64,000 nucleotides of DNA from Bacteroidales bacterium (lineage in GTDB: Bacteria > Bacteroidota > Bacteroidia > Bacteroidales > WRLA01): NCBI GenBank assembly GCA_963662905.2, contig CAXXFD010000004.1, positions 194,172-258,171 on the forward strand. The letters run 5' to 3'. This document shows, piece by piece, positions 7,665 to 42,981 of the stretch (its first letter is position 1; the number at the start of each line of letters is the position of its first letter). The translations under genes were made by a program, and so were the position numbers. The notes beneath the pieces were generated by a model. The model was given only the letters and a program-made list of their open reading frames with translations, was not told where the DNA came from and ran no database searches.

Positions 7665-7753
7665 ATTTTATTTGTCCAGGACTACCAAAATCCGGACTTG
7701 CTTTTAGCAAGCTTTCAGGTCTGGTTATAAAGTATTTATAGCCAAAATCAGGC

Positions 7754-10150: not shown

Positions 10151-10384
10151 TGTTCTGCTTTTTCTTATGCAAAGAACGACAGAAAACAGGTTTTGTTCAA
10201 CAATTTTTTTAAAAAATTAAACAAAACTCGTTTAATCTCTCATAGATTCCCCAGCCACTTTGTGGCCGCTTTAAGAAAGTGATTAAAATGATATCAGGAA
10301 AAATACAACAATTTTGAAGTATAACTCAAAAATAACATAATAATTTTGAGTTACACCTCAGAAATATTATAAGAATTTTGAGTT

Positions 10385-10558
10385 AGGCCCTTCGGCTTAC
10401 TTCGGCTACGCTCAGCACAGGCCGCTCAGGGGCCTTCAATTGTAGTTAAAATTAAAATCTAAGGCCCTCGAGCGGAGCCGAGAGGCCGATGTTAAAACAA
10501 AATCAAAGGCCCTTCGAACTGCCTGTAGGGAGCGGAGTCGAACTAAGTCGAGAGGCCG
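10385..10558. repeat. Three GC-rich hairpin-forming repeat units (10385..10435, 10461..10488, 10506..10558)
   Basis: Each unit starts (a)aggccc and ends gaggccg or ggggcct, so the termini are self-complementary. Units 2 and 3 share ggccct(t)cga...gagcggag(c/t)cga...gagaggccg. The region stands out as GC-rich within AT-rich spacer. Confidence 0.55.
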
Positions 10559-25540: not shown

Positions 25541-26260
25541 TTACCTAATTTTTCTTAAACTATCTCCTTTTAATTCAATTCTGTGGGAAGTGTGTACCAA
25601 ACGATCTAATATTGCATCGGCAATAGTAGCTTCACCAATGATATCGAACCAGCTTGCCACAGGTAGCTGACTGACAATAATTGTTGATTTCCGGGCATGG
25701 CGGTCTTCTATAATCTCCATAAAATCAATTTGTTGCTTTTGTTCCAGCCGTGCCATTCCAAAGTCGTCCAGTATGAGCAGGTCTGTTTTGGCCGTGGTTT
25801 CAAAAAATTTAAAGGCCGTTCCTTCAAGGCGTGCAATTTTAATTTTTTTCAGCAGCTTTTGCATGTTATAGTAGGCTACTTTATATCCCTGCAGGCATGC
25901 CTGGTGCCCCAAAGCCGAGGCCAGGAAGCTTTTCCCGCATCCGGTTGGGCCGGTGACCAATATGGACTGGCCTTTTTGCAGGTAATTGCCCGTGGCCAGA
26001 CTTGCCAGCAGGTCTTTGCCAAGCCCCCGGGCCTGGTCTGTGCTGACTTCCTGCAATGCCGCCTGGTATCGGAAGCGTGCGTTTCTCTGCAGCCGTTCAA
26101 AACGGTTCTGTTCGCGTTGTTGCTTTTCTGCTTCAAGGAGTATTTTCATGCCCTCCCCAAAGCTCAGCTCGTTTAGCCTGCCTGATTCCATCAATGCCTG
26201 CCATGCGGAGGACATCCCGTTTAAGCGCAAGCTTTTAAGTTGTGGTTCTATTTGCATCAT
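25541..26260 (-). CDS. istB: IS21-family helper ATPase IstB
   Basis: Walker A TGPTGCGKSF and Walker B LLILDDFG, 239 aa, directly downstream of istA. Confidence 0.9.
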   Translation of the reverse strand: MMQIEPQLKSLRLNGMSSAWQALMESGRLNELSFGEGMKILLEAEKQQREQNRFERLQRNARFRYQAALQEVSTDQARGLGKDLLASLATGNYLQKGQSILVTGPTGCGKSFLASALGHQACLQGYKVAYYNMQKLLKKIKIARLEGTAFKFFETTAKTDLLILDDFGMARLEQKQQIDFMEIIEDRHARKSTIIVSQLPVASWFDIIGEATIADAILDRLVHTSHRIELKGDSLRKIR

Positions 26261-26264
26261 AATA

Positions 26265-27836
26265 TCAGATATTAAGGGTTAACTGTTGTTGTGTATAATA
26301 ATCTTTGCCCCGTATATTGCCGTGCCTGGGAAGGGCTTTTTGTGGCGCATTGTTTTGTTGGCCAGCAGTTTTGTTTGTGAGTATGTTGGATATAAAGCGG
26401 TAAGTAAACACTTCATTGTCAATTGCCATGCGGCAGGCAGATTCAAAAGCAGCCTTATCGCTTGTACGGCAAAGCCTCAGCAGCCCGTCGCAGCTTTTGT
26501 AGAGCTGTTCTGCATAGCGGTCAGTGCGGCCGAACATCAATATAAAGAGCCTGTGCAGATCCTGGCTGAGTTCCATGGCTCTATCAAGATAGTACTGTGG
26601 GCTGCGCGCAAGGTGGTGTTTGTGGGCGGGGCATAAATGTTCCTTACAGGTAGAGTATCCGCCCTGTTTGTAATTGCGCAGGTGCGCCGCTATAAGCTTT
26701 TGCCCCAAATATATATCCACGGTATTGCGGGTATAGATAACCTTGGCCTGTTGGCCGATATGTTGATAAGGCACACTGTAGTAATGCTTGTCACGGCCAA
26801 GGTAAATGTGGTTGTTTTGTGCCACTTTGAGCGAGCAGTAATATTTTTGCTCATAGGGCTGCCGTGGAAGGGGCGCCAGTTTGTTCTTTTCATCTGCAAG
26901 GAAACGCTCCTGGCGGCACCATGGCTTTTGCTGCATACGGGTCTGGTTGTGCTGTTCTACCTTAGTTGCTATTGCGCCGTTTAGCTCATCAAGGCTAAAA
27001 AACACCTGGTTTCTGAGTTTTGCAAAAACGCGCTGGTAGACCAGTTTTACCTGGTTCTCCACAAGGGCTTTGTCTTTGGGCTTATATGCCCTGGCAGGAA
27101 CTACGGTACAGCCATAGTGGTTGGCAAAATCTTCCATACTGCGGTTGATATCGGGCTCATAGCGGTCTGCCTGGTCAACAGATGCTTTGAGGTTGTCGCT
27201 TACCAGTGCCTGTGGTGCTCCGCCCAGATGTTCCAAACAGCGCCTTAGGGCATAAAGGAAGTCCTGGCTGCTTTGGCTGGGCACTGCAATGGCAAAGCCA
27301 TAATCGGAATAGGGCAGGCAGGCTACAAAAACCTGACAGCTGATCAGCTCGCCTGTCTTTGGGTCGGTATAGCAAATGGTCTTGCCTGTAAAGTCCACAA
27401 AAAGCTTCTCAGCGGGTTTGTGGTGCAAAACCATGGATGGCTTTTTAGCCGACAGGTACTGGGAGAGATGGTAGCAGAACTGGGTCTTGCCATATGGCTT
27501 AGCTGTGGTTTCTTTGTATTCCTCCCATAGCAAAAGGCGCGTTACGCCTGTTTTTTGCAATTCCCGGGCATAGTGACCAAGCCTGTCTTTAAGGTACTGG
27601 TAACGTTCATCCTTATAAGCAGGGCTGCCTGCATGGAAGAGCGCTTCCAGTTCAGGGTCTTCGAGCTTTAGCAGCTGAGCGGTGCTCTGGCTAAGCGCAC
27701 CTGCTTTCTTTAAATAGCTCTTTACTGTGTTTTTGCTTATGCCAAGGTTACGGGCAATAGTCCTGTGTTTATTACCCTGCTTGTGCATCCTCAATAATTG
27801 TTTTATCTGACTCATGGGTTTGGGTTTACCGGCCAT
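26265..27836 (-). CDS. istA: IS21-family transposase IstA
   Basis: N-terminal HTH (IARNLGISKNTVKSYL) followed by a DDE core region, 523 aa, in the typical istA-istB arrangement. Confidence 0.9.
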   Translation of the reverse strand: MAGKPKPMSQIKQLLRMHKQGNKHRTIARNLGISKNTVKSYLKKAGALSQSTAQLLKLEDPELEALFHAGSPAYKDERYQYLKDRLGHYARELQKTGVTRLLLWEEYKETTAKPYGKTQFCYHLSQYLSAKKPSMVLHHKPAEKLFVDFTGKTICYTDPKTGELISCQVFVACLPYSDYGFAIAVPSQSSQDFLYALRRCLEHLGGAPQALVSDNLKASVDQADRYEPDINRSMEDFANHYGCTVVPARAYKPKDKALVENQVKLVYQRVFAKLRNQVFFSLDELNGAIATKVEQHNQTRMQQKPWCRQERFLADEKNKLAPLPRQPYEQKYYCSLKVAQNNHIYLGRDKHYYSVPYQHIGQQAKVIYTRNTVDIYLGQKLIAAHLRNYKQGGYSTCKEHLCPAHKHHLARSPQYYLDRAMELSQDLHRLFILMFGRTDRYAEQLYKSCDGLLRLCRTSDKAAFESACRMAIDNEVFTYRFISNILTNKTAGQQNNAPQKALPRHGNIRGKDYYTQQQLTLNI

Positions 27837-28430: not shown

Positions 28431-29547
28431 GTGTTATAATTATTAAGTTAATTAACTAATATTTTATTATCTTTGCCACATGGCAAGAATAGGAAAACCC
28501 ATCCAGATAACAACGGAAGAGAAGGCAGAGCTTCTTTCCATGAGCCGTTCACACAAACTTGAAAAACGTTACGTTGAGCGTGCCGAGATAATTATATTAT
28601 CCGATCAAGGTTTATTGATGAGTGAAATAGTAGAGCAAACAGGGCTTAGTAGACCTGTAGTAAATAAATGGAGACAACGCTTTCGCGAGCAAGGTATTAC
28701 AGGTTTGAAGGATGCTTACCGAAGTGGAAAACCAAAGGTTATCACTGCAGAACAACAGGCTATGGTAATTGAGAAAGCCTGCACAAAGCCAGATGACGGA
28801 TACACTAACTGGTCTCAAGAACGTATCGCCAAAGAAGTAGGGATTAGCCAGTCTAAAGTATTTCAGATTCTTAAACAAGCAGACATAAAGCCACATAAAA
28901 TTGAGTATTGGTGCGGCAAGTCAAAAGACCCAGAGTTTGAAGAAAAAATGACCAACATTGTTGGGCTTTACATGTCGCCACCAGAAAACGCTTTGGTTAT
29001 TTGTGTTGACGAAAAAACTCAAATACAGGCACTCGATAGAACTCAGCCAGAGTTGCCATTACGGCCAGGAAATCCGAAAAGACAAACAGCCACCTACAAA
29101 CGCAACGGAACTGTTTCGTTAATTGCGGCACTTGCAGTGCATACAGGTGAAGTAACAGCCAAAACAATTAAATCAAATAATGCAGAAAACTTCTTAAAGT
29201 TCTTAAAATCACTTGATAGGAAATACCGAAACAAAAAGCTTCACATAATTGCAGACAACCTTTCGGTACATAAACATAAAGACGTTAAGGAGTGGCTGAA
29301 AGGAAAAAGGAAAATCACATTGCACTTCACCCCAACGTATTCTTCTTGGTTGAATCAAGTTGAGATATGGTTCAATATATTAACAAAGGATGTTGTAAAA
29401 GGAGGTGTTTGGAAATCATCAGAACAATTGGCTTCTCAACTTATTGAATACGTGAAAACATACAATGAGACACGTGCTAAGCCCTTTCGATGGACTTATA
29501 CTGGTGATGCATTGAAAATTAGTTAACTTATTAAATAATTAATACAC
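28431..29547 (+). mobile_element. IS630-family insertion sequence (1117 bp), apparently intact
   Basis: Imperfect terminal inverted repeats: gtgttataattatt... and the reverse complement of ...aataattaatacac. TA target duplication at 28429..28430 and 29548..29549. One DDE transposase ORF, with an internal -7 box tatctttg at 28468..28475. Confidence 0.8.
28480..29526 (+). CDS. IS630-family DDE transposase
   Basis: The N-terminus has HTH motifs. The DDE_3-type core reads VICVDEKTQIQAL ... HIIADNLSVHKH ... TPTYSSWLNQVEIWF. Confidence 0.9.
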   Translation: MARIGKPIQITTEEKAELLSMSRSHKLEKRYVERAEIIILSDQGLLMSEIVEQTGLSRPVVNKWRQRFREQGITGLKDAYRSGKPKVITAEQQAMVIEKACTKPDDGYTNWSQERIAKEVGISQSKVFQILKQADIKPHKIEYWCGKSKDPEFEEKMTNIVGLYMSPPENALVICVDEKTQIQALDRTQPELPLRPGNPKRQTATYKRNGTVSLIAALAVHTGEVTAKTIKSNNAENFLKFLKSLDRKYRNKKLHIIADNLSVHKHKDVKEWLKGKRKITLHFTPTYSSWLNQVEIWFNILTKDVVKGGVWKSSEQLASQLIEYVKTYNETRAKPFRWTYTGDALKIS

Positions 29548-29722: not shown

Positions 29723-29749
29723 CAAAAAACCCAGCGCATTGGCCGGGTT
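29723..29749 (-). terminator. Rho-independent terminator of the Rhs operon
   Basis: The minus strand reads AACCCGGCCAATGCGCTGGGTTTTTTG: a GC-rich stem followed by a T-run, 27 nt downstream of the last operon gene. Confidence 0.55.
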
Positions 29750-29775
29750 CTATTGGTATTTATTTACGTCGCATC

Positions 29776-30219
29776 TCACTTTCGATCTTGTAAGTTTTGA
29801 CTATCACTCAAAATCGGGTTCGTTAAAACGTCTTGAACATAACCTGTAGATTGAAAGGTAATAATCCCCTTATCTGTTTCGATTGTATAATCCCATAATA
29901 TCATCTTCCCATTAGGGGTTGCTCGTTTATTATCCCTTGTAATTTCCAGTATGGATAGGCATATAGAATTATTAAAGTCAATATCTATTTTTAAATTAAG
30001 TACATTATTAAATATTAAATTACATTTTGATACCCAAAATTGGTAACTGCTTTCTTTACTCCTTTCCCATTTAAAAATATAATCAATATCTAATGATAAT
30101 TCAAGATTATCCCATGGAAACTTCATAGAATAAAGACTTGCATCATGCCAACCCATTTCTTTAAAATCAGCATCAGTCCATTTGTTTTTAACTTGTAAGG
30201 TAGTCATACTAATTCCCAT
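29776..30219 (-). CDS. Candidate cognate immunity protein for the Rhs C-terminal toxin
   Basis: A small (143-147 aa) ORF with no signal peptide. It overlaps the Rhs stop by 11 nt, or starts 1 nt after the stop if the ATG at 30207 is used. It is AT-rich like the toxin tip. No known family was recognised. Confidence 0.55.
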   Translation of the reverse strand: MGISMTTLQVKNKWTDADFKEMGWHDASLYSMKFPWDNLELSLDIDYIFKWERSKESSYQFWVSKCNLIFNNVLNLKIDIDFNNSICLSILEITRDNKRATPNGKMILWDYTIETDKGIITFQSTGYVQDVLTNPILSDSQNLQDRK

Positions 30220-33200
30220 TCCTTTTATCCAATACTTTTTTTACAGTTCTAATGTCTTGCTGATTCATTGGTTCAACGGTTTTTCTATCCTTATTCCAAT
30301 GAGTCTGTCCTGTTTCTGGATTTGTATTCTTATTTGAATATTGCTTGTGCGGTGTCTCTACTCCTTTATGTGTTGCTCCATCCAGATCATAATGAACTTT
30401 CTTATTTGGTGTCTCTACTGTTACCGAGTTTTTACCATCATTAAGATTCGTCTTAACATCTAAGGCTTGCTCTTTAATACTTGGGCTTTTTGCTAACTTC
30501 TCACTACCTTCTTTAAGCATTTTCTCACCACCTTCTTTGGCTAACTTCTTACCCCCTTGCTGAATAACGTCATCAACACCAGTAATCACGGGAACACCTG
30601 TAACTTCTTCAACTGTTGTTTCAACAACTTCTATGGCAACATATGTAGCAACAGCTTGAATACCGTAAAGAGCAATAGCAAAAGCCCCTACCATTGCAGT
30701 TCCAACAGCCGCCGCACCAATTGCATTCTTTTTAATATCATGCTTAGTGATATGCCCTTTCTTTTGCGAATCAGCATACAACTGGCCATAAACCCAAGGA
30801 GGATCATCAACAACAGTTCCGTCCGGGTCAATAAACCTGATTGGATTGTTTAAAGTATAATTGTAAGGAGACCAATTAAAATATAAATGCGCCATCGGGT
30901 CAACAACATACCATCTGCCAACTGAAGGATCATAAAACCTCGCCCCATAATCGTACCAGTTTAATCCAAAATCATCCTGCAGTTCCTTGCCGTTGTATTT
31001 ATATTTGTTTTCAGGGCTGGCATCGCTATAACTCAAACCGGCAATATTCATCCCAAATGGATAATAAGCGTCTTTCTGCAAAACCGTTCCGTTTTGGCTG
31101 AGGGTAACACGTGTATTGCCCAGGTGGTCTTTGAGGTAATATTGGTAATCAAATCCTCCGTTTTCCCGTGGCACCAGCCTTCCTTCGGCATGTTGCACAA
31201 ACTGCAGGTTGCCGTCGGAATAAACGAAGCTGCCACAATAATCAGTTGCCGGTCCGGGCATATAGCCTGTGGCGTATGTGGTTTTTTGCAGCTTCCTGCC
31301 CAACGCATCATATGCATAGAAAATATGCTTCATTTCGTCCTGCTCCAAATCAATTTGATCGGGTAAATTTAGGTAATTATAGCTTACGCCCGAAATTTGT
31401 TTGTTTTTGTCCAGTGTCATATTGCCGTTATCGTCATATGCGTATTCACCCTGTTGCAGGAATGAGCCATTGTCCGTAAAGCCGTTGAGCTGTGCTGACT
31501 GGGCTGTTATGTCGTTCACGGCAATAAGCTGGTTACCGGAATAGCTGTAATCCATTTGGTCGATAATGCCATTAGCGGAAGTCTGGGCAAAATCCCCCCG
31601 GCGTTTCAACGAAAGGATATTTCCGTTGCGGTCATAGGTATATGCCGTACTGTATTTGTTGTTTATATTGTATGTGGCTGATTCGATGCGGTTTATATCG
31701 TCATAATAGTACTGATAGGCCGACAGTTCGGGATACATTGCGCTTTTCCAGCGTATGGAAGCAATATTTCCGTTAAACTGAGGTGCAGTAGCATTTGTAT
31801 TGTATTCCAATTGGCAGGCAAAGGCGTCGTTTACTGTCTGATCTGCTTTATTGATGCCCGTGAGCCATCCCCGGATATTATAGGTGTAATCAATATTTTG
31901 CAGGCAACCGCTTGATGAAACATGGAGCTTTTTGATCCGTAAACGGTTCAGGTCATCATACCTGTTGGTATAGAGGTTAACTGTGTCTGCCCCGTTAACA
32001 GAATGCAGGTGGCGTGTTATATTGCCCAGGTGATCGTATTCAAAACGCTCGGCAATTTCAATGGGTGTTGCATTTTGCCCTGCCTGATGGCTTTCTTTGG
32101 CAATCAGTACCTGTCCTGTATAGTTGGTTTTGTTGGAAATAATATCCAATCCTTCCAGGTGGTTGTCCTTTACGGTTTGGATCAGATGTCCGTATTTATT
32201 GTAATAATCAACCTGCAGCATATTGCCGTTCAAAGGCACAGTGCTGTTGTTAGGTATTATTGAAGTGCGTGTCCCGGTCTGGAGCCCTTTTACCTCATTG
32301 GTATTTGGCAAAGCAAAATCCAGGTGGCTGCTTCGGAAGGCATAATCGTTTGTATATGCAGAAAGCTGGAGGAAATCATAATTGTCATAATAATTGATGG
32401 TACCAATAAAATCAGATTGACACAGTGAAGGGTATGCGTTATTGGTATAACCGTAATCAGAATTTGGGTCATAAGATTCGTACGCAGCGGCAGCATCAAT
32501 ATATACCTGCATTTGCTCTGGTGTTTGCGGTGCGGGGAATTGGTGGATACCACTGATAATTTCCCTGTTATGGGCATCGTATTTTTTAAACATCCATTGG
32601 TTTCGAAGCCGCAGTTCACCATCCTGGATCAATACGGGAAGGTCGCGTTCGTTATATAGCATAAAAACTGCCTTTGCCCCGGGCAATTTCTTAAGTGTCA
32701 TGCGGTTTAATTTGTCATAATCATAGTAATAGCAAAGCTGGTCTATATCAGTATTGGTTTCATAAGTACCCAATGTTGTATTGCTTTGGCTGAACAAAGC
32801 ATCAGCTTTTGGTGGCACAACATAGCGGAGCATACCATAATCATCATAAACATAGTAAGTGCTTAGCCATTGCCCGTCATTTTGCATCCTTTTTAGGATA
32901 AGTTCGCCAAATTGATTTTTAAATTCAATGCTTTTATTGCCGTTTTCGTCTTCAGCATATACACCCTGAAGGTTGTTTGGGCTATAAGCCCCTTCATATA
33001 TCAGTTCATCATTAACATTGACTTTATAGTATTTAATATTATCACTGCTTAGGTTGGTCACATAATTAAATTCCTGAACATGGCCTCCCTGAATTTGCCA
33101 ATCGGAACCGGGGGCAGATTGTTCCATTATACGGTTTAAGGGGGATCCGTCATATTCTTTTTCAGCAAAAGGGAACTGGCCGTCCTGTTGGTTTGAGAAT

Positions 33201-33793
33201 GTTGCGTAAAAGCCTTTGGCTTCTGTGGCAGCATCGGTTCTCAGCCCTCCCGGGCCATAATCCGGGTGTTCCTGATTTATGGCATAGGGCAAAAACTCTT
33301 TGCTCATTCTCCCAAATCCGTCGTATTCAATATTCTGTATGATATCAGCTCCTGATGCAGCCCCTTTCACAACTACATTTTGTATTTCACGCCCCAGTCC
33401 GTCATAATAAACGATCTCTTCATGCCAGTCTTTTTCATAATCAATGGCATTATGGACCGGGCTTAGTGTTGTGGCATTGTTTCCAATAGGGGTGTAGTGC
33501 CGTATGTAATTGTAATTAAAATCTCCATCTGTTACTGCCTGCCCCCCGTTATAAGCCAGTACCGGGTCAATAAAAGCATGGAGGTTAGATCCATTTGCCA
33601 GAGCTGTATATCCCGGTGTAAAATGCAAGGATTTCCTGGCTTTTTCTATGGCATTTTCGTATTGTGGCAGCTCCCTGTCATCCCAGCCATCTGGAGGGAT
33701 CTGGGCAAATACAGATGAGTTTCCAATAACTAAAACGGCAATTATAAATAGGGTTATTTGGGATTTCATTTTATGCTTGTTTATCAATTTCAT
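30209..33793 (-). CDS. RHS/YD-repeat protein with RHS-associated core and a variable C-terminal toxin domain; Sec signal peptide
   Basis: Signal peptide (KSQITLFIIAVLVIGNSSVFAQ). A Bacteroidota-type N-terminal region (DFNYNYIRHYTP) recalled as DUF6443-like. Many YD repeats (YYDGLGRE, YDGFGRM, YVYDDYGMLRY, YDKLNRM, YDHLGNI, YDDLNRL, YDRNGNI, YDDNGNM, YDALGRK). Core: NWYDYGARFYDPSVGRWYVVDP...YNYTLNNPIRFIDPDGT. Confidence 0.9.
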   Translation of the reverse strand: MKLINKHKMKSQITLFIIAVLVIGNSSVFAQIPPDGWDDRELPQYENAIEKARKSLHFTPGYTALANGSNLHAFIDPVLAYNGGQAVTDGDFNYNYIRHYTPIGNNATTLSPVHNAIDYEKDWHEEIVYYDGLGREIQNVVVKGAASGADIIQNIEYDGFGRMSKEFLPYAINQEHPDYGPGGLRTDAATEAKGFYATFSNQQDGQFPFAEKEYDGSPLNRIMEQSAPGSDWQIQGGHVQEFNYVTNLSSDNIKYYKVNVNDELIYEGAYSPNNLQGVYAEDENGNKSIEFKNQFGELILKRMQNDGQWLSTYYVYDDYGMLRYVVPPKADALFSQSNTTLGTYETNTDIDQLCYYYDYDKLNRMTLKKLPGAKAVFMLYNERDLPVLIQDGELRLRNQWMFKKYDAHNREIISGIHQFPAPQTPEQMQVYIDAAAAYESYDPNSDYGYTNNAYPSLCQSDFIGTINYYDNYDFLQLSAYTNDYAFRSSHLDFALPNTNEVKGLQTGTRTSIIPNNSTVPLNGNMLQVDYYNKYGHLIQTVKDNHLEGLDIISNKTNYTGQVLIAKESHQAGQNATPIEIAERFEYDHLGNITRHLHSVNGADTVNLYTNRYDDLNRLRIKKLHVSSSGCLQNIDYTYNIRGWLTGINKADQTVNDAFACQLEYNTNATAPQFNGNIASIRWKSAMYPELSAYQYYYDDINRIESATYNINNKYSTAYTYDRNGNILSLKRRGDFAQTSANGIIDQMDYSYSGNQLIAVNDITAQSAQLNGFTDNGSFLQQGEYAYDDNGNMTLDKNKQISGVSYNYLNLPDQIDLEQDEMKHIFYAYDALGRKLQKTTYATGYMPGPATDYCGSFVYSDGNLQFVQHAEGRLVPRENGGFDYQYYLKDHLGNTRVTLSQNGTVLQKDAYYPFGMNIAGLSYSDASPENKYKYNGKELQDDFGLNWYDYGARFYDPSVGRWYVVDPMAHLYFNWSPYNYTLNNPIRFIDPDGTVVDDPPWVYGQLYADSQKKGHITKHDIKKNAIGAAAVGTAMVGAFAIALYGIQAVATYVAIEVVETTVEEVTGVPVITGVDDVIQQGGKKLAKEGGEKMLKEGSEKLAKSPSIKEQALDVKTNLNDGKNSVTVETPNKKVHYDLDGATHKGVETPHKQYSNKNTNPETGQTHWNKDRKTVEPMNQQDIRTVKKVLDKRNGN
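30212..30814 (-). other. Rhs C-terminal polymorphic toxin tip (201 aa after the DPDGT core boundary)
   Basis: Starts VVDDPPWVYG. Contains a ~35-aa hydrophobic stretch (AIGAAAVGTAMVGAFAIALYGIQAVATYVAIEVV), a K/E-rich linker, and a terminal ~75-aa His-rich module (KKVHYDLDGATHKGVETPHKQYSNKNTNPETGQTHWNKDRKTVEP). The DNA turns visibly AT-richer at the boundary. Confidence 0.7.
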
Positions 33794-33795
33794 GG

Positions 33796-36700
33796 TTATT
33801 GATTCTTATAATGATACTCCAGGTGTTTCTGTTTTTTAAGCTCTTCGTCCATAATGCTTTGAAGCCTGCCTGCCATATCGTATGTATAAAAAGAAATACG
33901 GTTTTTGGGGTCAGTGCCGGAGGTGATTCCTATGAGGGGCTTATGTGTATATGTTTGGATCATTGCATTTTTCATGCTTTGTTGTGCACGCAAGGCTGTA
34001 TTGAAGTTTTTCCAAATGCCCTGTTTCATGGTATTATTGGCAATATCATGCATATCGGCAACAAGTTCATGGATGTTGGCATAGCCGGAAGGGATTGACG
34101 CAGCAACAGCAGCACTGAGGGTAGGGTAATCAACGTTGGAGGCCTCAACAACAACACATGTTTGGTTGTATGACCATATTACACTTTTGGTCGGCTCACT
34201 TCGCATTTTGTATTGCAGAACATTGCCCTTATCGTCATAATCATCAAATTCAATATATGGATCAGGTGCAGATCCGGGACCTTTTTTGAAAATATATTTG
34301 CCCAACTGCAATAACCCGTCATCATCCATATTATATTCAATAATATCTGAATACATGCCTTGCCTATTCCTTAGTTTTTCAACTTTGATTGGAATGTTAA
34401 CTCGGTTCTGCGCAAAAAGCTCACTGCGGTATGGTGTATTAACCTGTTCGGGATATAGATATGTTTTCTGTAACCTATTGTCTCCGGTCTCTGTTGTTTC
34501 CTTTTTCAGTAAGAGGTCACTGCGCACCGTATTGGTATAATACTCCTTTGTTGTTGTTGTAACTACAGCTTCTCCATCTTTATAGTCTGTAGTAATTATC
34601 TTTGAAGGCCTGGTTTGTCCGCTATAGATGGGGTAATAGGCTCCAATATGCTGTTGTTTTAATCTTAAAACATAGCTTGTAGATTCCCAAATCAACAATT
34701 TATAAAAAGCGGTTCTAAAACCATAGAATATTTCGGATCGGTAAAAATCATATTCCCGATCTATTGTTTTGATTATATTATTATTTTCGTTGTAGAAAAC
34801 TTCCCTAATTATTGAGCCATTTCTCGGTTCTTCTTTATTCCTATAAGAGGGTGGAGTGACATAATCTCTATAATTAAATGGGGTTATATCAGGATAATTT
34901 ACATAATGAATCTCTTGCTTCCCATTATACTCGGCCAAAAAACGATCTCTAATTGTAACAACATCATACCCAACAATATCTCCAGAACCAAATAGAGATG
35001 AAGTCTTAAGATTATTATTATTGGAAAGCCAACAATTAAAGAAATATCTACCTCCTGTATTCCAATATGAAATAGGAGGATTTGCGCAATTTAAGCGCAG
35101 GATGGAAAAATTATATTCTGCAAATGGTTTCGTTTTTGACAGGTTCTTTCCCCCGGAATACTCAAAGCTCTTTTCTGTATAAGAATTGTATCCGTCTGCA
35201 TAATTTAATATCTGTCTTATCCTAAGACCGTTCCCATGTGTTATGGAGTTTTCAGTATCATTAAAATCCGGGAAATAGCCTTTTTGCGGATAAGTGTTTG
35301 GATATGCATTTAATTCATACTCAAAAAGAGTTCGCCCCCCTGTAGGATAGACAATCTGTCTGAGTATAGACGCTTGGGTGAAACTTAATTTGGCTGAATG
35401 ATTGTTTCCATTGTTTAATGGGACTTCCTCTCTATAGCCTTTAAATCTTGATATATTAGGAATTAAGCTATTATTATTTGTTTCACCATTAAAATAACCC
35501 CAATAATCAACAGCAAATGAATTCTTTTTTGGTAAATTGACATCCCAATAAACAAAAGAATATGCAGGTTTGCCCAACTCTCTAATTGAATCTAGTTTTA
35601 ATCTATGTGTTAAAAATGTTTCTGGCAAATCATCAATTTGCACATCATAAGTGTTTCCCTGACTGATGCCCTCAAAATAGCTATAGAAGAAATCAATGGA
35701 TTTAATTATAGTTCGATTCAAATTTATAATATCGATACTAGAAAGTTTTTTTCCATTTTTATCTAATCGTTCATTATTTTTATTAAAGACAACTGTGCCT
35801 CCGGAAAAATTAATAGAATCAAGATAGGCATCCTGCTGACGTGTAAAAGTCCAAGAATTAAAGAGCCTCCAATGAGTTTCAAGAGATTCTTGATTGTAGT
35901 ATCGCGGGTATGGTGCACATGAGGGATGATCTACACGATTATATTGACTAAATTGAATTGCTGTAATAGGACTTTCCATATAATTATCCAGATATCTGTA
36001 ATGCCATGTTTGTCCTAAAGCTGTAAGATTAAATTTTTCAGGCGTTCTTGAATAGTTGAAATTTATTGACCTTTCATTTGGGGTTATAATTTCTGTTAGG
36101 AGCCACATTCTTGAAGTAACCTGATTAGGGCCAAACGGGGAACAGCTTCCTCCATAGCCTTGAGAGTAGCTTCGCGCGTCACGGATTGTTTCTACGCATT
36201 CCTCAAAATGATATGATACGCCATTATCCAAAGTTATTTTCCATGCAAACGGCATACTGCCGGTCTTGGTAATTTTACAAGTTGTGTTGTTTAATATATG
36301 AATTGTGCTTTCATTTTCAAAATCAATTAGGAATTCAATTGTTTGACCTAAAAATATTGCTTTAAACACATCAGGTTCAGAATCGGTTTTATTAATATAA
36401 TTCGGATAATCATTACAGTCCTGTGAATCAAATAGGCATGGTTTATGATTATTATAATAATTTCCATCCTCAGGAACGTATCCATCAGTAAAATGCCAAT
36501 AAGAATAGTGATCTAAAGAAATTTCATCGTTTGAAGGGGTATAGCCAGTGGCTGGAGCACTATTGGGATAGTCATATGGCCATGGAAACTGTGCGGGTTC
36601 ACTATAATAAGGAGTAGAAGCGTGATAGTCCGGTAGTATTTTTTCCACATTGCCATCTAAATCATCTTTATCGTTGATAATTTGTATTATACTTCCAAAA

Positions 36701-37008
36701 TTTATATCCCATCCAAGTCCAGTCCAGCTTGCTTCGTCCGTAACCTTTATTCCTCCTGAATGATACCGAAGCTCAATAGGCACTTCAATACTTGGATACT
36801 TAATATTATATAAAGGCACAGAAATGTTTGGGACACCTGTGTATGCATCAACAGGTATCTCACCATATTTCAGAAAGCTGTAAGCTTGTGGAGAGACAGG
36901 GGATGTTTTGGGCACATAGTAATCGTCAATGGTTTGAGCAGAGGTAATTCCATTAAGGCCTATACTGATGCAGGTCAGTATGAAGTATTTATATATTATG
37001 TGTTTCAT
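33796..37008 (-). CDS. Large secreted protein with SpvB/TcB-N-terminal-like motif and a terminal YD repeat; function unknown
   Basis: Signal peptide MKHIIYKYFILTCISIGLNGITSAQ. The stretch PVDAYTGVPNISVPLYNIKYPSIEVPIELRYHSGGIKVTDEASWTGLGWDINFGSI follows the pattern TG-x4-S-x-P-L ... L-x-Y-x-SG ... G-x-GW seen at the start of SpvB/TcB proteins. The last 35 aa contain FYTYDMAGRLQSI. The stop lies 2 nt from the Rhs start. Confidence 0.5.
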   Translation of the reverse strand: MKHIIYKYFILTCISIGLNGITSAQTIDDYYVPKTSPVSPQAYSFLKYGEIPVDAYTGVPNISVPLYNIKYPSIEVPIELRYHSGGIKVTDEASWTGLGWDINFGSIIQIINDKDDLDGNVEKILPDYHASTPYYSEPAQFPWPYDYPNSAPATGYTPSNDEISLDHYSYWHFTDGYVPEDGNYYNNHKPCLFDSQDCNDYPNYINKTDSEPDVFKAIFLGQTIEFLIDFENESTIHILNNTTCKITKTGSMPFAWKITLDNGVSYHFEECVETIRDARSYSQGYGGSCSPFGPNQVTSRMWLLTEIITPNERSINFNYSRTPEKFNLTALGQTWHYRYLDNYMESPITAIQFSQYNRVDHPSCAPYPRYYNQESLETHWRLFNSWTFTRQQDAYLDSINFSGGTVVFNKNNERLDKNGKKLSSIDIINLNRTIIKSIDFFYSYFEGISQGNTYDVQIDDLPETFLTHRLKLDSIRELGKPAYSFVYWDVNLPKKNSFAVDYWGYFNGETNNNSLIPNISRFKGYREEVPLNNGNNHSAKLSFTQASILRQIVYPTGGRTLFEYELNAYPNTYPQKGYFPDFNDTENSITHGNGLRIRQILNYADGYNSYTEKSFEYSGGKNLSKTKPFAEYNFSILRLNCANPPISYWNTGGRYFFNCWLSNNNNLKTSSLFGSGDIVGYDVVTIRDRFLAEYNGKQEIHYVNYPDITPFNYRDYVTPPSYRNKEEPRNGSIIREVFYNENNNIIKTIDREYDFYRSEIFYGFRTAFYKLLIWESTSYVLRLKQQHIGAYYPIYSGQTRPSKIITTDYKDGEAVVTTTTKEYYTNTVRSDLLLKKETTETGDNRLQKTYLYPEQVNTPYRSELFAQNRVNIPIKVEKLRNRQGMYSDIIEYNMDDDGLLQLGKYIFKKGPGSAPDPYIEFDDYDDKGNVLQYKMRSEPTKSVIWSYNQTCVVVEASNVDYPTLSAAVAASIPSGYANIHELVADMHDIANNTMKQGIWKNFNTALRAQQSMKNAMIQTYTHKPLIGITSGTDPKNRISFYTYDMAGRLQSIMDEELKKQKHLEYHYKNQ

Positions 37009-37028: not shown

Positions 37029-39083
37029 TTATTTTTTAACAATTTTAATAATATGAGTTTGCTCATCAATATTGATTTTTAAAGTGTACAAACCTGTATT
37101 CAAGTTGGTCAACCTTAGCTGTCTTCTAAAAATAAAGCCGTCTGTAACTGCCTTTTCACTGTAAATTATTTGTCCCAGGGTTGAGTAGATTTCGATAACA
37201 ATGGGCTGCTTATGCTCCGTGTTTTTTGCAACCTCTATATTTAACCAATCCTCAACAGGGTTAGGGTAGGCATTGATACGTAATTCTGTTTTTGAGCGAT
37301 CATGGACATTGATAAGGATTTCATCAGTACTTTCACAATTATTATAATCAGTAGTAAATACTGAGAGTTTATGAATCCCAGGGGTTAAGCTATTTGCCTC
37401 AATGCTTATATTTTTTGTTTCCTCTCCAGAACTCCATATGTATGTTTTAAAACCACCCAGAACTTCAACCTGGGCTATTTCATCCCTATATAGCTCAATA
37501 TCACCACCGAGCTTTGGTTTTCTCAAAGGTTCAACAATAGCCATAACAGTGTCTAGTGCTTCACAACCTCTTGTACTAACAACTTTTATCGTAATCATCT
37601 GAGTTGAATCAGCTATATAGGAATTGCTTCCTTGGACGCCGTTCCATAAATATCGGCTAAAGGAGGAATCAACCTTGATTTTTATAGGTTCACCGCAAAG
37701 TGAATATAGTTCATTTTGAGAAAGAAGGTCTTTATACATACTGCAATCCAAGAGCCTGGAAGCATAATAGTTTTCGCCCGGGGCAAAATCGGACTGATTA
37801 TCGAAAATTCGAATGGAATTGCTGAAATTGCCATTAACAAATATTGTTTGCTCATCATATATCATGGCATGGCGAATGAAATTTGAGTTCGAGTCACCAA
37901 TGGGCTCTATTTGCTCCAAGATCCCTTTTCCGTCCAGCTTGGCCAAAAAGGCATCTGTTGACAGATTTTGAGATTCAATTTGCCAGTCATCAATGTCAAT
38001 TTTCCCTATAAATGAACCTCCGATAATTAATCTATCCCTACCTGGGTCATAGTCCATTGTTTTTGGATAATCATTGGCAATTCCCCCAAAAGAATTTATC
38101 CACTTAAGTCGGTAAGATGAATCAACCCCAGCAATAAACACATCATTCATTCCATTAGAAATTATGGCCTTGCCCCCGAAGCTAATTTCATCCTGAAATG
38201 ATCCAATGGCGATAAAACCGTCTTTAGTGAAAGCAATGTCGACGATTTCGTCGTCGTAATCCCCGCCAAACAGAAAAGCGGAAATATTGTCCGACTGTAT
38301 TTTTGATGGATCTAATTCCAAGACAATTCCGTCTCTCATTCCTTTGCTGCTAAATAATTGATTGTTAACAGTGACCTTATCCTTAAAAGCCCCTCCAAGA
38401 ATAATATTTTGATTAGGAGCTGTTTTAATAAAGTTTAGCTCAAAAAACCTGCTTTCCAGTCCGCAACTGTCAAAAACAAGGCCTGTTTCATCAAGGAAAT
38501 AAATCCGATATAGCTTTTTATTGTTATCATTAGGTTTAAATGACCTAAGCTCCGCTGCAATTACTGTGCTATCTCCCTGGGCAAATGTTCCTTGAACAAA
38601 TGAATATTTCGGATACTCTATGAACCTTTTAAAATTACCATTTTTAGTCAGCATTAGCTCAAAAGACCTTATTGACTTTGAATGCGAAAGCTTTCTTCCG
38701 TTAAATTCAATAGTTCCACGGAAAGAACCATATAATATGATTGTTTCTTCTGACTGATTTACAGTTAAACTATTGATATGACAAAACTTATCACTTAATA
38801 CGTTTTGCGCCCAAAGCTCAATTCCGGAACTGTCTAATTTTTTTATATAAGAAACTAATGAAGACTCCTTAAAAGCAAGGTTTATTTTATTGGTATCAAT
38901 TATTTGTTTAACTCCCGTTAAATAGGTGCATGATGATTTATCAAGGTAAGCGTCCGATATACTTTGAACACCAATTTCTTTTGAATTTAGCATCCACTCA
39001 ACGGATGTACCTTGGGCTGCTGTAAAAGAGATAGGAGCCAATATGCTCAGGGCAAATAAAAAGAGCTGGAATTGACGTGTCAT
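37029..39083 (-). CDS. SBBP-like beta-propeller repeat protein with Ig-like modules and T9SS C-terminal sorting domain
   Basis: Has a signal peptide. Repeats of the type GG..D....I....DG.I.IGSF.....FGG......G..D.FIA resemble SBBP repeats. The C-terminus INAYPNPVEDWLNIEV...GLYTLKINIDEQTHIIKIVKK is a type-A CTD. Confidence 0.65.
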   Translation of the reverse strand: MTRQFQLFLFALSILAPISFTAAQGTSVEWMLNSKEIGVQSISDAYLDKSSCTYLTGVKQIIDTNKINLAFKESSLVSYIKKLDSSGIELWAQNVLSDKFCHINSLTVNQSEETIILYGSFRGTIEFNGRKLSHSKSIRSFELMLTKNGNFKRFIEYPKYSFVQGTFAQGDSTVIAAELRSFKPNDNNKKLYRIYFLDETGLVFDSCGLESRFFELNFIKTAPNQNIILGGAFKDKVTVNNQLFSSKGMRDGIVLELDPSKIQSDNISAFLFGGDYDDEIVDIAFTKDGFIAIGSFQDEISFGGKAIISNGMNDVFIAGVDSSYRLKWINSFGGIANDYPKTMDYDPGRDRLIIGGSFIGKIDIDDWQIESQNLSTDAFLAKLDGKGILEQIEPIGDSNSNFIRHAMIYDEQTIFVNGNFSNSIRIFDNQSDFAPGENYYASRLLDCSMYKDLLSQNELYSLCGEPIKIKVDSSFSRYLWNGVQGSNSYIADSTQMITIKVVSTRGCEALDTVMAIVEPLRKPKLGGDIELYRDEIAQVEVLGGFKTYIWSSGEETKNISIEANSLTPGIHKLSVFTTDYNNCESTDEILINVHDRSKTELRINAYPNPVEDWLNIEVAKNTEHKQPIVIEIYSTLGQIIYSEKAVTDGFIFRRQLRLTNLNTGLYTLKINIDEQTHIIKIVKK

Positions 39084-40956: not shown

Positions 40957-42981
40957 ATGATGAAAAAGAATATACTCATCGTATTTTGGCTGTTTTCAGC
41001 CTTTTTTTGGGATTCGTATGCCCAAACCGTATTCTTAGAAGACTTTAGTAAAGGGGATTCCTCGCTTGAAGGCTGGGAAGTTGGCCCCAACGATTATCCT
41101 GTATTTTCGGAATATCGTATTGCAAATACAGCCTTATGCAAACGCGAAGCACCGGAGTTTAATCTGTATTATTGTGGCAAAGAAACACATAAAGGCAACT
41201 CTGGTGAGTATTATGGTGATGGAATTGATTTGATCTCCCCGCAATTTGATTTTTCGCAATATGATGAGCTCAACCTATCTGTTGACCTATATTATTTGCC
41301 AGATCTGGTCTGGATAGTTTATCAGCTCTATTTTATTGTTGAAACGCGTAATAATTTTACAGAGGATTGGGTTGAACTTTTTCACTATAAGTATGAGTAT
41401 GGGACTAAGGATTTAGAACCACCATTTAACCTAATAATGGCTCTTGATTCATCAATGTTCAAAAAAGAAGGATTTCAAATTAAATTAAGGCTTTCTAGTA
41501 ATGTGGGCTGGATGTCATACAGTAATAACTGGTTTAATATTGACAATATCCATATTTATCAACCTGATCAGCATGACCTTGGTTTTTTTACGGATTATCC
41601 GGATGTCCATATGGAGAAGGATTCCGTATTTATACCCAGGGTATTTGTCAGGAACAACGGGCTAATGAATACCGAAGGACAGGTAAACTGTCAGATAAAA
41701 GAGTTTCAGACTGGCGACTTAATTTATAATGAAACTGTTGGCACAACTGAGCCTGGATCACTGGATACTGTAAGCCTTCATTTCCCTCCTTTTGTTGTTC
41801 CTTACAGCAACAATCTCTATGATGTTGAATATCAGCTTATGTGTACGGGTGATGTCAATATCGATGATAATAATGCTTCATTTAAAATTGATTCCTATAC
41901 AAGTTTGTATCATAATATATTAAGTATCAATGTTTTGTATTCAACAGAGTTTTTGGAATCCGGATATAATATGATGGTACCGTATATCATTGACTTGCCT
42001 GATGTATTGGAGGAATATGATGATATAAAGGAAGCTATCCCCAGATGTCAAGTGGCTAACTATATATATGATGATGTACCGGATTCACTAGATACACAAA
42101 CTGCAATGGCATTTTTACATAGTATTGATGCGGACTTTGAAGCGGGAGGACCTTCTCCGAACTTAATTCCTCATATTCCTGCATGGATTTTCCTTCCTGG
42201 CAACAATATATATCCTGTACACTCTTGTTTTACGTATCCTAATGATCCAAGCACAGACTATATCATAATAATTGATGAGTTGGCACAGCACGCCAGGAGT
42301 GCATTTTCATTGGATATTTTTGGTACCCATTCCGGCCTGGATTATAGTATCATGGTCGAACTCACCCCCAAAGCCCCAATCGTAAATGAATATTTAAAAT
42401 TACATACGGTAATCACACGCTCCCATGTGCCGTCTAATGCCAATCCGGAAATACCAGATCGGTACCGCGTTGAATTCTTCGACGACGTAGTCCAAATGGC
42501 CCTGCCCGATACCAACGGCATTGCTTTTTCCATGGACGGATCAGAGACCAGCGCCAAGCAATGGGAAATGTCATTCAGTTTAAAGGATTTCTGGGATCCG
42601 GAGCAGGTGAAGGTTGTAACTTATGTTCAGGATACATTTACCTACGACATCCTGCAGTGCCGTGCTGTGCCCCTGCAAAACCTTTGGGGCGTAGGAATGG
42701 AAGAAGAAGCGCAAATGCCTGCAGAAAGCGTCCTTATCAGTCCCAATCCGGCAAAAGACATGCTTTATGCGCAGCTCATGCTGGAAATGCCGGCCAATGT
42801 GGATTTCCGCCTTTTTGATATCAATGGCCGCGATCTGGGCATCCTGAAAAGAAGCTTCCTCGGTGCAGGCAACCACAAAGTGCAGATCAGTGTACCGAAG
42901 CACATAAAAACAGGCATCTACATCCTGCAAACAGAAACAGAGCGTGAGCTTTATTCGCAGAAACTGAATATTGTGCGGTAA
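40957..42981 (+). CDS. T9SS-secreted protein (choice-of-anchor-J-like N-terminus, Omp28-related-like region, type-A CTD)
   Basis: Signal peptide MMKKNILIVFWLFSAFFWDSYAQ. Then FLEDFSKGDSSLEGWEV. A later motif VKVVTYVQDTFTYDILQCRAV is recalled from Omp28-related proteins. The C-terminus SPNPAKDMLYAQL...GIYILQTETERELYSQKLNIVR is CTD-like. Confidence 0.55.
   Translation: MMKKNILIVFWLFSAFFWDSYAQTVFLEDFSKGDSSLEGWEVGPNDYPVFSEYRIANTALCKREAPEFNLYYCGKETHKGNSGEYYGDGIDLISPQFDFSQYDELNLSVDLYYLPDLVWIVYQLYFIVETRNNFTEDWVELFHYKYEYGTKDLEPPFNLIMALDSSMFKKEGFQIKLRLSSNVGWMSYSNNWFNIDNIHIYQPDQHDLGFFTDYPDVHMEKDSVFIPRVFVRNNGLMNTEGQVNCQIKEFQTGDLIYNETVGTTEPGSLDTVSLHFPPFVVPYSNNLYDVEYQLMCTGDVNIDDNNASFKIDSYTSLYHNILSINVLYSTEFLESGYNMMVPYIIDLPDVLEEYDDIKEAIPRCQVANYIYDDVPDSLDTQTAMAFLHSIDADFEAGGPSPNLIPHIPAWIFLPGNNIYPVHSCFTYPNDPSTDYIIIIDELAQHARSAFSLDIFGTHSGLDYSIMVELTPKAPIVNEYLKLHTVITRSHVPSNANPEIPDRYRVEFFDDVVQMALPDTNGIAFSMDGSETSAKQWEMSFSLKDFWDPEQVKVVTYVQDTFTYDILQCRAVPLQNLWGVGMEEEAQMPAESVLISPNPAKDMLYAQLMLEMPANVDFRLFDINGRDLGILKRSFLGAGNHKVQISVPKHIKTGIYILQTETERELYSQKLNIVR

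What the first reader, a model, noticed from the sequence alone, without database searches (positions are those of the whole stretch)
29776..30814. Unassigned 201-aa Rhs toxin tip with an internal hydrophobic segment, plus an overlapping immunity candidate
The RHS core ends at PIRFIDPDGT, the conserved DPxG autoproteolysis boundary. The following 201 aa contain three parts: a ~35-aa Ala/Gly/Val-rich hydrophobic stretch, a Lys/Glu-rich linker, and a His-rich ~75-aa module (VHYDLDGATHKGVETPHKQ...THWNKDRK). I cannot assign this module to a named toxin family. The H..D / H-K-G / P-H pattern would be compatible with a small nuclease or RNase, but that is a guess. The DNA becomes markedly AT-richer exactly at the boundary and stays so through the 147-aa downstream ORF. 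This is the classic signature of a swapped toxin/immunity tip. The immunity candidate has no signal peptide, which suggests a cytoplasmic target.
Basis: partly seen in the sequence, partly recalled or inferred. Interest (0 to 1): 0.7.

Follow-up and report, generated by a model that had tools for sequence, protein, structure and literature searches.

The report
Rhs Ntox24 toxin tip with immunity gene
This is an ordinary swapped toxin/immunity cassette at the end of a Bacteroidota Rhs gene; the toxin belongs to a named but untested family (Ntox24), and its immunity protein belongs to a large unannotated family that folds like the immunity protein of a known small DNase toxin.

Summary
A 1194-aa Rhs protein (30209-33793, minus strand) ends its core at PIRFIDPDGT (aa 993). 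A 201-aa tip and a small downstream gene follow.

The last 92 aa match Pfam Ntox24 (PF15529) at 39 bits against a cut-off of 24. Ntox24 is a polymorphic-toxin domain predicted in 2012 to be an RNase; I found no experimental test of it.

The cassette-swap reading is supported:
- A sister Rhs from another genome is 98.8% identical over aa 1-900 and unrelated in the tip.
- Third-codon-position GC falls from 0.44 in the core to 0.26 in the tip and 0.245 in the downstream gene.
- In 8 of 8 loci with a toxin at least 48% identical, a homolog of the downstream protein follows directly.

That protein has no Pfam or NCBIfam match, yet its family has about 1100 cluster representatives. Its AlphaFold model resembles only PIM7 (PDB 8OWU), the immunity protein of the Mg-dependent nuclease toxin PT7. 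It carries an invariant Asp on the predicted helix-to-strand loop; in PIM7 the corresponding loop carries the Asp that plugs the toxin's active site. Toxin-to-PT7 similarity is marginal (P about 0.03).

Best reading: a cytoplasm-acting nuclease toxin with its cognate immunity protein. It is a new member of a known kind, of modest interest.

The parts
30209..33793 (-). Rhs/YD-repeat polymorphic toxin gene, 1194 aa. It has a Sec-type signal peptide (aa 1-30), DUF6443 (aa 118-245), the repeat shell, the Rhs-associated core and the tip.
   Evidence: ORF. Pfam DUF6443 at 124 bits, and RHS_repeat at 20.1 bits, just under its cut-off of 22. NCBIfam TIGR03696 at 60.6 bits against a cut-off of 32.5.
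30818..31066 (-). Rhs-associated core domain (aa 910-992), ending in the DPDGT autoproteolysis-type motif (aa 989-993, 30815-30829). Divergence from the sister Rhs starts here.
   Evidence: Domain hit. Identity to P0233 is 90.7% over aa 901-954 and 43.6% over aa 955-993.
30623..30724 (-). Hydrophobic Ala/Gly/Val-rich pre-toxin segment (aa 1024-1057), of transmembrane-like hydropathy.
   Evidence: The 19-residue hydropathy mean is 1.5-2.0. P0011 shares the segment. Only about a third to a half of homologs have a comparable segment. No Pfam match.
30488..30559 (-). Lys/Glu/Gly-rich linker (aa 1079-1102, QGGKKLAKEGGEKMLKEGSEKLAK).
   Evidence: Read directly from the sequence. Similar KLAK-type stretches occur in the unrelated tip of P0233 and in the L043 toxin.
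30212..30487 (-). Ntox24-family toxin domain (aa 1103-1194). The predicted fold is helix, four-stranded sheet, helix. H1149 is invariant. D1136, H1142, N1156, D1180 and R1182 are conserved in at least 90% of homologs.
   Evidence: Pfam PF15529 at 39.1 bits against 24. Alignments. AlphaFold mean pLDDT 94.8. pI 9.4.
29776..30207 (-). Cognate immunity gene, 143 aa (an alternative ATG at 30219 gives 147 aa). The protein is acidic and beta-rich, with an invariant MGWHD motif on the predicted helix-1 to strand-A loop.
   Evidence: Homologs and the family's conserved motifs. The family has 1110 representatives. AlphaFold pLDDT 89.8. Foldseek finds PIM7, PDB 8OWU chains D and E, with probability 1.00. 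It lies next to toxin homologs in 8 of 8 loci examined.
29726..29751 (-). Terminator-like hairpin plus T-run, 25 nt after the immunity stop codon.
   Evidence: 10-pair stem followed by a T tract. This is a consensus scan only.

Best explanation
The Rhs protein is exported with a Sec signal peptide. Its 201-aa C-terminal tip is most likely cleaved at the DPDG motif by the Rhs-associated core and held inside the repeat shell (inferred from the family). The active part of the tip is a 92-aa basic Ntox24-family domain that acts in the cytoplasm of a competitor cell as a nuclease. It most likely uses the invariant His1149 together with Asp1136, His1142, Asn1156, Asp1180 and Arg1182. I lean slightly towards a metal-dependent nuclease like PT7 rather than the metal-independent RNase predicted in 2012, but the substrate is unresolved. 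The producer is protected by the adjacent 143-aa acidic immunity protein. This protein probably binds the toxin one-to-one and inserts the invariant Asp of its MGWHD loop into the active site, as PIM7 does with PT7. The hydrophobic segment and the Lys/Glu linker form a variable pre-toxin region. This region may help the toxin cross a membrane (speculative). The cassette (end of the core, tip and immunity gene) was acquired by recombination.
For: **Shown:**
- Ntox24 HMM hit above threshold.
- The 92-aa domain is conserved on Rhs and SpvB-type carriers in Bacteroidota and Gammaproteobacteria.
- Cassette swap against the sister Rhs, and a GC3 drop.
- The immunity homolog directly follows the toxin in 8 of 8 loci where the toxin is at least 48% identical. 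This includes a truncated toxin remnant in Aquimarina.
- A 37%-identical toxin has a different partner.
- Toxin pI is 9.4 and immunity pI is 4.9. The immunity protein has no signal peptide.

**Supporting the mechanism:**
- The immunity model matches only PIM7: E 1.1e-2, probability 1.00, TM 0.50 to 0.63. The next hit has E 0.2 and TM below 0.2.
- In PIM7, D17 on the helix-1 to strand-A loop contacts the PT7 catalytic residues. The invariant MGWHD Asp here lies on the predicted loop between helix 1 and the first strand, and the best local profile alignment pairs it with PIM7's HYWDA.
- PT7 is an EDTA-sensitive DNase that also degrades rRNA.
- hhalign aligns TPH1149xQ..N.NP with PT7's DH47VHLYDENKNP, at P 0.013-0.03. 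In the control, 14 of 500 column shuffles reached the real score.
- Zhang et al. 2012 predicted an RNase from a single conserved His and from the domain's use in toxin-antitoxin systems.
Against: - No experiment on any Ntox24 member was found.
- The toxin model has no significant structural match in the PDB or BFVD, and the PT7 chains are not among the top 50 PDB hits.
- PT7 does not hit the Pfam Ntox24 model.
- Profile similarity between the two immunity families is not significant: 28 of 300 and 68 of 300 shuffles reached the real score.
- Immunity folds can be shared by unrelated toxins, so the PIM7 match says little about the toxin's chemistry.
- D1138 and, in one homolog, D1136 and H1142 are not conserved.
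- Only profile positions 45-87 of 91 of Ntox24 are matched.
- Cleavage, export route and delivery are untested.
Confidence: 0.68

Rival explanations
1. The toxin is a metal-independent endoribonuclease that cuts rRNA, tRNA or mRNA, as originally predicted for Ntox24, and has no evolutionary link to PT7. The immunity protein merely shares a common beta-rich fold with PIM7.
For: Zhang et al. 2012 made this prediction from a single conserved His, the presence of the domain in toxin-antitoxin systems, and the analogy to colicin E3. Only one His (H1149) is invariant across 52 homologs. Neither the PDB search nor Pfam links the toxin to PT7.
Against: The prediction was never tested. The toxin-versus-PT7 profile alignment is better than 97% of shuffles and puts the invariant His on a PT7 catalytic His. 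The model showed no significant match to any solved structure, known RNases included.
Confidence: 0.22
2. The tip kills through its hydrophobic segment as a membrane-inserting or pore-forming toxin, and the C-terminal domain has an accessory role.
For: A 34-aa stretch has transmembrane-grade hydropathy. The unrelated sister tip also carries Gly/Ala-rich hydrophobic stretches.
Against: The hydrophobic stretch is absent or weak in about half of the homologs, whereas the 92-aa domain is conserved. The domain also occurs alone as 94-121-aa orphan genes, still paired with the immunity protein. The immunity protein is soluble, acidic and has no membrane segment, unlike immunity to pore formers.
Confidence: 0.05
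3. The cassette is a decaying or silent remnant next to insertion sequences and has no current function.
For: IS630-type and IS21 elements lie directly downstream. Orphan and truncated copies exist elsewhere.
Against: Both reading frames are intact and tightly coupled (1-nt spacer), with a terminator-like hairpin after them. All residues conserved in the family are present. The Rhs gene is full length.
Confidence: 0.05

Closest known systems
Ntox24 / 'polymorphic toxin type 24' (Pfam PF15529; Zhang et al. 2012, PMC3482391)
   Same: The HMM hit is above the gathering score. The domain sits at the C-terminus of an Rhs carrier, after a processing motif. It has one invariant His plus a conserved His and Tyr/Phe. 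An immunity gene lies immediately downstream.
   Different: Only the C-terminal half of the profile (positions 45-87 of 91) aligns. The predicted fold is helix, four strands, helix rather than 'all-beta'. The partner is neither Imm50 nor Imm53, the immunity families listed for Ntox24.
PT7/PIM7 of Bacillus cereus (PDB 8OWU; Nachmias et al., bioRxiv 10.1101/2021.10.19.465003)
   Same: The immunity proteins share a fold (Foldseek probability 1.00), and each has an Asp on the loop after helix 1. Both toxins are very small (78 and 92 aa) His/Asp domains placed after a Gly-rich pre-toxin region. The motif around the catalytic His looks similar (DHVHLYDENKNP against TPHKQYSNKNTNP).
   Different: There is no significant sequence or profile similarity for the immunity proteins, and only marginal similarity for the toxins. 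The PT7 chains did not appear among the top structural hits of the toxin model. PT7 lacks the C-terminal helix and is carried by LXG or PT-TG proteins of Firmicutes, not by Rhs.
Rhs/YD-shell toxins (T6SS Rhs effectors, Tc-toxin TcC subunits)
   Same: It has a repeat shell, an Rhs-associated core ending in DPxG, a variable C-terminal tip and a downstream immunity gene. Tips are exchanged by recombination.
   Different: The N-terminus is a Sec signal peptide plus DUF6443, not PAAR, VgrG-binding or prePAAR. The export and delivery route in Bacteroidota is unknown.
Membrane-entry regions of other contact-dependent toxins (CdiA-CT entry domains, prePAAR transmembrane helices, pre-toxin TG domains)
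   Same: A hydrophobic or Gly-rich segment is placed N-terminal to the catalytic toxin domain.
   Different: No sequence match to any of them: Pfam found nothing at E up to 5. The segment is variable among homologs, and its function here is purely inferred.

Membership tests
Ntox24 (PF15529) | Match to the family HMM above Pfam's gathering score | tested here: met
   39.1 bits (tip alone) and 34.3 bits (whole protein) against a cut-off of 24. Only profile positions 45-87 of 91 are covered.
Ntox24 (PF15529) | Conserved Tyr, His, His, with one universally conserved His (Zhang et al. 2012) | tested here: met
   In VHYDLDGATHKGVETPH, H1149 is invariant in 52 sequences, H1142 is at least 90% conserved, and the Tyr is Y or F. 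Mapping onto the Pfam seed columns was not checked directly.
Ntox24 (PF15529) | Partner immunity protein of family Imm50 or Imm53 | tested here: not met
   The 147-aa ORF, 24 family members (the 143-aa form among them) and 10 distant representatives had no match to Imm50, Imm53 or any other immunity family. The window protein had no Pfam hit at E up to 1.
Ntox24 (PF15529) | Endoribonuclease activity | not testable with these tools
   This is a prediction only. No experimental paper was found.
Rhs / YD-repeat polymorphic toxin | Rhs-associated core domain ending in a DPxG motif | tested here: met
   TIGR03696 at 60.6 bits against 32.5, over aa 910-992, followed by DPDGT.
Rhs / YD-repeat polymorphic toxin | Conserved body with a tip that varies between close relatives | tested here: met
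   P0233 is 98.8% identical over aa 1-900 and about 23% (background level) over the tip.
Rhs / YD-repeat polymorphic toxin | Autoproteolytic release and encapsulation of the tip | not testable with these tools
   Inferred from the motif only.
Toxin-immunity pair (polymorphic toxin system) | The immunity gene is co-inherited with the toxin type | tested here: met
   8 of 8 loci: the window, L001, L005, L006, L002-L004, L040, L041 and L043. A more distant toxin (L042) has another partner.
PT7 toxin family | Detectable homology to PT7, with catalytic D37, H47 and H73 | tested here: inconclusive
   hhalign gives P 0.013-0.03, and 14 of 500 shuffles reached the real score. H1149 aligns with H47 and an Asp with D37, but no equivalent of H73 is evident. 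PT7 chains are not in the top 50 Foldseek hits.
PIM7 immunity family | Same fold, with an active-site-plugging Asp on the helix-1 to strand-A loop | tested here: met
   Foldseek E 1.1e-2, probability 1.00, TM 0.50 (query-normalised) and 0.61-0.63 (target-normalised). The MGWHD Asp is invariant on the predicted loop after helix 1. The contact itself was not modelled.
PIM7 immunity family | Sequence or profile homology | tested here: not met
   hhalign gives P 0.04-0.14, and 28 of 300 and 68 of 300 shuffles reached the real score. A profile search of PDB sequences found nothing.

The most novel reading that the evidence does not exclude
Ntox24 toxins and the PT7 nucleases form one superfamily that shares a PIM7-like immunity fold. 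If so, the widespread Ntox24 domain would be a Mg-dependent DNase/rRNase rather than the metal-independent RNase assumed since 2012. The roughly 1100-cluster, unannotated MGWHD protein family would be its main immunity family. In addition, the hydrophobic pre-toxin segment would be a self-translocation device for Sec-exported, T6SS-independent Bacteroidota Rhs toxins.
Probability: 0.3. Interest if true: 0.55.

Novelty: new member of a known kind. Interest (0 to 1): 0.35.

Why it matters
The locus is a textbook Rhs toxin/immunity cassette, so it does not change how these systems are understood. Three modest points are useful:
- It assigns a named family to the tip.
- It defines a large immunity family that current domain libraries miss, which would improve annotation of Ntox24 loci.
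- It gives a testable lead that Ntox24 may work like the PT7 nuclease, by way of the shared immunity fold.

It is also a clean example of a signal-peptide/DUF6443 Rhs from Bacteroidota. The delivery route of that class is unknown, and no paper in the searched library mentions DUF6443.

Tried and rejected
- **PDB sequence searches.** The toxin as a single sequence found nothing. The toxin profile gave only a chance hit at E 0.74. The immunity profile found nothing.
- **Structural searches with the toxin model.** Foldseek against the PDB and BFVD gave nothing significant. The top hits (MRP1/2, KA1, PURA; TM about 0.33) were rejected as chance.
- **Domain libraries for the immunity family.** Pfam and NCBIfam gave no hits for the window protein, nor did Pfam for the close family members and distant representatives.
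- **PT7 and PIM7 against Pfam.** No hit to Ntox24 or to any immunity family.
- **Pre-toxin region against Pfam.** No PT-TG or other domain.
- **Profile-profile comparison of the immunity families.** Not significant.
- **Finding the window's own contig or organism.** Exact-protein look-ups found the proteins but gave no names, and the contig is not on record. The organism is inferred only as a T9SS-bearing member of the Bacteroidota, from Por_Secre_tail proteins and the closest homologs.
- **His-Me finger / HNH reading of the strand-strand-helix end of the domain.** Considered and rejected. The invariant His sits at the start of the first strand, not at its end, and no such structures were retrieved.
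- **First shuffle script.** It timed out and was rerun in parallel.
Full report
**1. What is there**

The minus strand carries a 1194-aa ORF at 30209-33793. Its features are:
- a Sec-type signal peptide, MKLINKHKMKSQITLFIIAVLVIGNSSVFAQ;
- DUF6443 at aa 118-245, 124 bits;
- a weak RHS_repeat hit;
- the Rhs-associated core TIGR03696 at aa 910-992, 60.6 bits against a cut-off of 32.5.

The core ends in PIRFIDPDGT at aa 993, where the last base of the Thr codon is 30815.
- a hydrophobic Ala/Gly/Val stretch at aa 1024-1057, with a 19-residue hydropathy mean of 1.5-2.0;
- a Lys/Glu/Gly linker;
- a His-bearing C-terminal module.

A 147-aa ORF follows at 29776-30219. Homolog alignment and the identical 143-aa database entry P0012 favour the ATG at 30207, 1 nt after the Rhs TAG stop. 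A terminator-like hairpin lies 25 nt after its stop codon.

**2. The tip is not unassigned**

Pfam Ntox24 (PF15529, 'Bacterial toxin 24') matches tip residues 136-178 at 39.1 bits against a gathering score of 24. Only profile positions 45-87 of 91 are covered.

Homolog searches returned 11 and then 48 proteins. Many are already labelled 'polymorphic toxin type 24'. They sit on Rhs or SpvB-type carriers, or are short orphan genes, and come from Bacteroidota (Chryseobacterium, Flavobacterium) and Gammaproteobacteria (Aliikangiella, Methylococcaceae).

The alignments define a 92-aa domain, SPSIKEQAL...KRNGN (aa 1103-1194). H1149 and T1147 are invariant across 52 sequences. D1136, L1137, G1139, H1142, P1148, N1156, D1180 and R1182 are conserved in at least 90%.

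Ntox24 was defined by Zhang et al. 2012. [quoted passage not shown] I found no experimental study of it.

**3. The cassette-swap reading holds, with a shifted breakpoint**

A sister Rhs from another genome, P0233 (1203 aa), compares as follows:

| Region of the window Rhs | Identity to P0233 |
|---|---|
| aa 1-900 | 98.8% |
| aa 901-954 | 90.7% |
| aa 955-993 | 43.6% |
| tip, aa 994-1194 | about 23% (background level) |

The exchanged unit therefore begins 40-90 aa upstream of DPDGT, inside the core, rather than at the motif.

Composition agrees. GC3 is 0.44 in the core, 0.26 in the tip and 0.245 in the immunity gene, and it starts falling around aa 920-980. Total GC falls more slowly because the pre-toxin region is rich in Ala and Gly codons.

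**4. The downstream gene is the cognate immunity gene**

It has 24 homologs in the first search. A profile search of cluster representatives finds 1110 at E up to 1e-3 and 705 at E up to 1e-10. Invariant motifs include F..MGWHD, DYIF.W, W and N[GK].

Neither Pfam nor NCBIfam matches the window protein, and Pfam matches none of 24 relatives or 10 distant representatives. It is therefore not Imm50 or Imm53 by this test.

Genomic linkage is strong:
- A toxin homolog is followed directly by an immunity homolog (45-57% identical) in Chryseobacterium L001, Aliikangiella L005, L006, Flavobacterium L040, Methylococcaceae L041 and metagenome L043.
- In Aquimarina the 'orphan' immunity gene is preceded by a truncated toxin remnant (...GVETPHVQKS...NQQDIRTVKK) beside a Y1 transposase.
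- A toxin only 37% identical (L042) has an unrelated partner.
- More distant 157-158-aa immunity relatives stand alone.

The toxin domain is basic (pI 9.4). The immunity protein is acidic (pI 4.9) and has no signal peptide.

**5. Structure**

The toxin domain models with high confidence (mean pLDDT 94.8). Its order is helix 5-15, strands 22-26, 30-35, 48-56 and 63-74, then helix 77-92. It has no significant match in the PDB (best E 0.065, TM 0.33) or in BFVD.

The immunity protein models at pLDDT 89.8 as one short helix followed by about nine strands. Its only meaningful PDB match is chains D and E of 8OWU. That entry is PIM7, the immunity protein of the Bacillus cereus polymorphic toxin PT7. 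The match has E 1.1e-2, probability 1.00, and TM 0.50 (query-normalised) and 0.61-0.63 (target-normalised). The next hit has E 0.2 and TM below 0.2.

**6. The PT7 lead**

PT7 is a 78-aa toxin with these reported properties:
- Its DNase activity is EDTA-sensitive, and a Mg2+ ion was modelled in its active site.
- D37A, H47A and H73A each abolish its toxicity in cells.
- It was later shown to degrade rRNA as well.
- PIM7 covers the catalytic pocket, with D17 on the helix-1 to strand-A loop making the salt bridges.

I recovered PT7 and PIM7 sequences from B. cereus plasmids and from 25 genomic loci. The PIM7 family has a conserved HYWDA motif containing D17. The immunity family here has an invariant MGWHD[AS] on the predicted loop after helix 1, and the best local profile alignment pairs the two motifs. 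Overall, however, that profile comparison is not significant: P 0.04-0.14, with 28 of 300 and 68 of 300 column shuffles reaching the real score.

For the toxins, hhalign aligns VTVE..VHYDLDG..THKGVETPHKQYSNKNTNP with FVHV..IRMRIDPP.DKVTKYDHVHLYDENKNP. This places H1149 on PT7 H47 and an Asp on D37. The P-value is 0.013-0.03, and 14 of 500 shuffles reached the real score.

Against the link, PT7 does not hit the Pfam Ntox24 model, and the PT7 chains are not among the top 50 structural hits of the toxin model. I therefore treat a PT7-Ntox24 relationship as a lead with a probability of about 0.3-0.4, not as a result.

**7. The hydrophobic segment**

It reaches transmembrane-grade hydropathy in the window, P0001 and P0004, and in a few short orphan genes (P0009, P0044, P0057, P0060) where the stretch lies at the very N-terminus. 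P0011 shares the window's segment by alignment. It is weak or absent in about half of the homologs. It has no Pfam match.

The unrelated tip of P0233 also has Gly/Ala-rich stretches and KLAK-type basic repeats. This fits a variable pre-toxin region. A role in membrane passage is plausible by analogy with the entry regions of other contact-dependent toxins, but it is untested.

The 92-aa domain occurs alone with the immunity gene. The segment is therefore not needed for toxicity or immunity specificity.

**8. Mechanism and verdict**

*Shown:*
- membership of the Rhs toxin class and of Ntox24;
- the cassette exchange;
- the toxin-immunity linkage;
- the PIM7-like fold of the immunity protein.

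*Inferred:*
- autoproteolysis at DPDG;
- a cytoplasmic nucleic-acid target;
- active-site plugging by the MGWHD Asp;
- any role of the hydrophobic segment.

The substrate (DNA or RNA) and the metal dependence remain open.

This is a new member of a known kind. Its 'unassigned' claim is refuted by a standard profile search. The residual novelty lies in the unannotated immunity family and the possible Ntox24-PT7 link.

**9. Context**

IS630-type and IS21 elements lie just downstream of the terminator. Upstream, a 1070-aa secreted protein with no Pfam match abuts the Rhs start. Two proteins with T9SS sorting domains lie nearby. This fits a member of the Bacteroidota, but the organism name could not be retrieved.

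Noticed in passing
window 33796-37008 (-): A 1070-aa protein with a signal peptide and no Pfam domain ends 3 nt before the Rhs start. It has low GC3 (0.30), like the tip. In the sister genome the same cluster is represented by 818-aa and 225-aa pieces (P0235, P0236), which suggests a split or frameshifted copy there. It could be a partner in Rhs export or delivery.
   Followed up: partly
window 25541-27836 (-) and 28480-29526 (+): IS21 (IstA and IstB) and an IS630-type DDE_3 transposase lie immediately downstream of the immunity gene's terminator-like hairpin. The IS21 element has a higher GC (about 0.5) than its surroundings. They may have replaced or interrupted an orphan cassette array.
   Followed up: partly
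window 37029-39083 (-) and 40957-42981 (+): Two proteins carry a type IX secretion C-terminal sorting domain (Por_Secre_tail). This points to a T9SS-bearing member of the Bacteroidota.
   Followed up: no
P0233 (sister Rhs, other genome), aa 994-1203: The alternative tip on an otherwise 98.8% identical Rhs is a Gly/Ala/Val-rich region followed by a Lys/Ser-rich low-complexity tail. It has no Pfam match, and its mode of action is unknown.
   Followed up: partly
L002 / L003 (Aquimarina), 5251-11627: Downstream of a DUF6443 Rhs lies an array of small cassettes separated by three copies of a 190-aa Y1 (IS200/IS605-type) transposase. One copy sits next to a toxin truncated just before GVETPH, while the immunity gene is kept intact.
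   Followed up: partly
L040 2501-2866 (Flavobacterium, P0045): This toxin homolog reads HFALQGATYKG where the family has HYDLDGATHKG, so it lacks the conserved Asp and His. It keeps TPH and is still paired with the immunity homolog. Either those residues are not catalytic or this copy is inactive.
   Followed up: no
L036 (Scandinavium) and L037 (Parachlamydiaceae): PT7 homologs outside the Firmicutes are followed by a different small protein (SFPDF motif, 120-126 aa) that has no Pfam match and no similarity to PIM7. This looks like an immunity switch within the PT7 family.
   Followed up: partly
L006 430-1364: The toxin ORF P0009 runs 30 aa past the usual end of the domain, and the immunity gene is called from an internal Met at MGWHD (124 aa). 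This looks like a lost stop codon or a frameshift at the junction.
   Followed up: no
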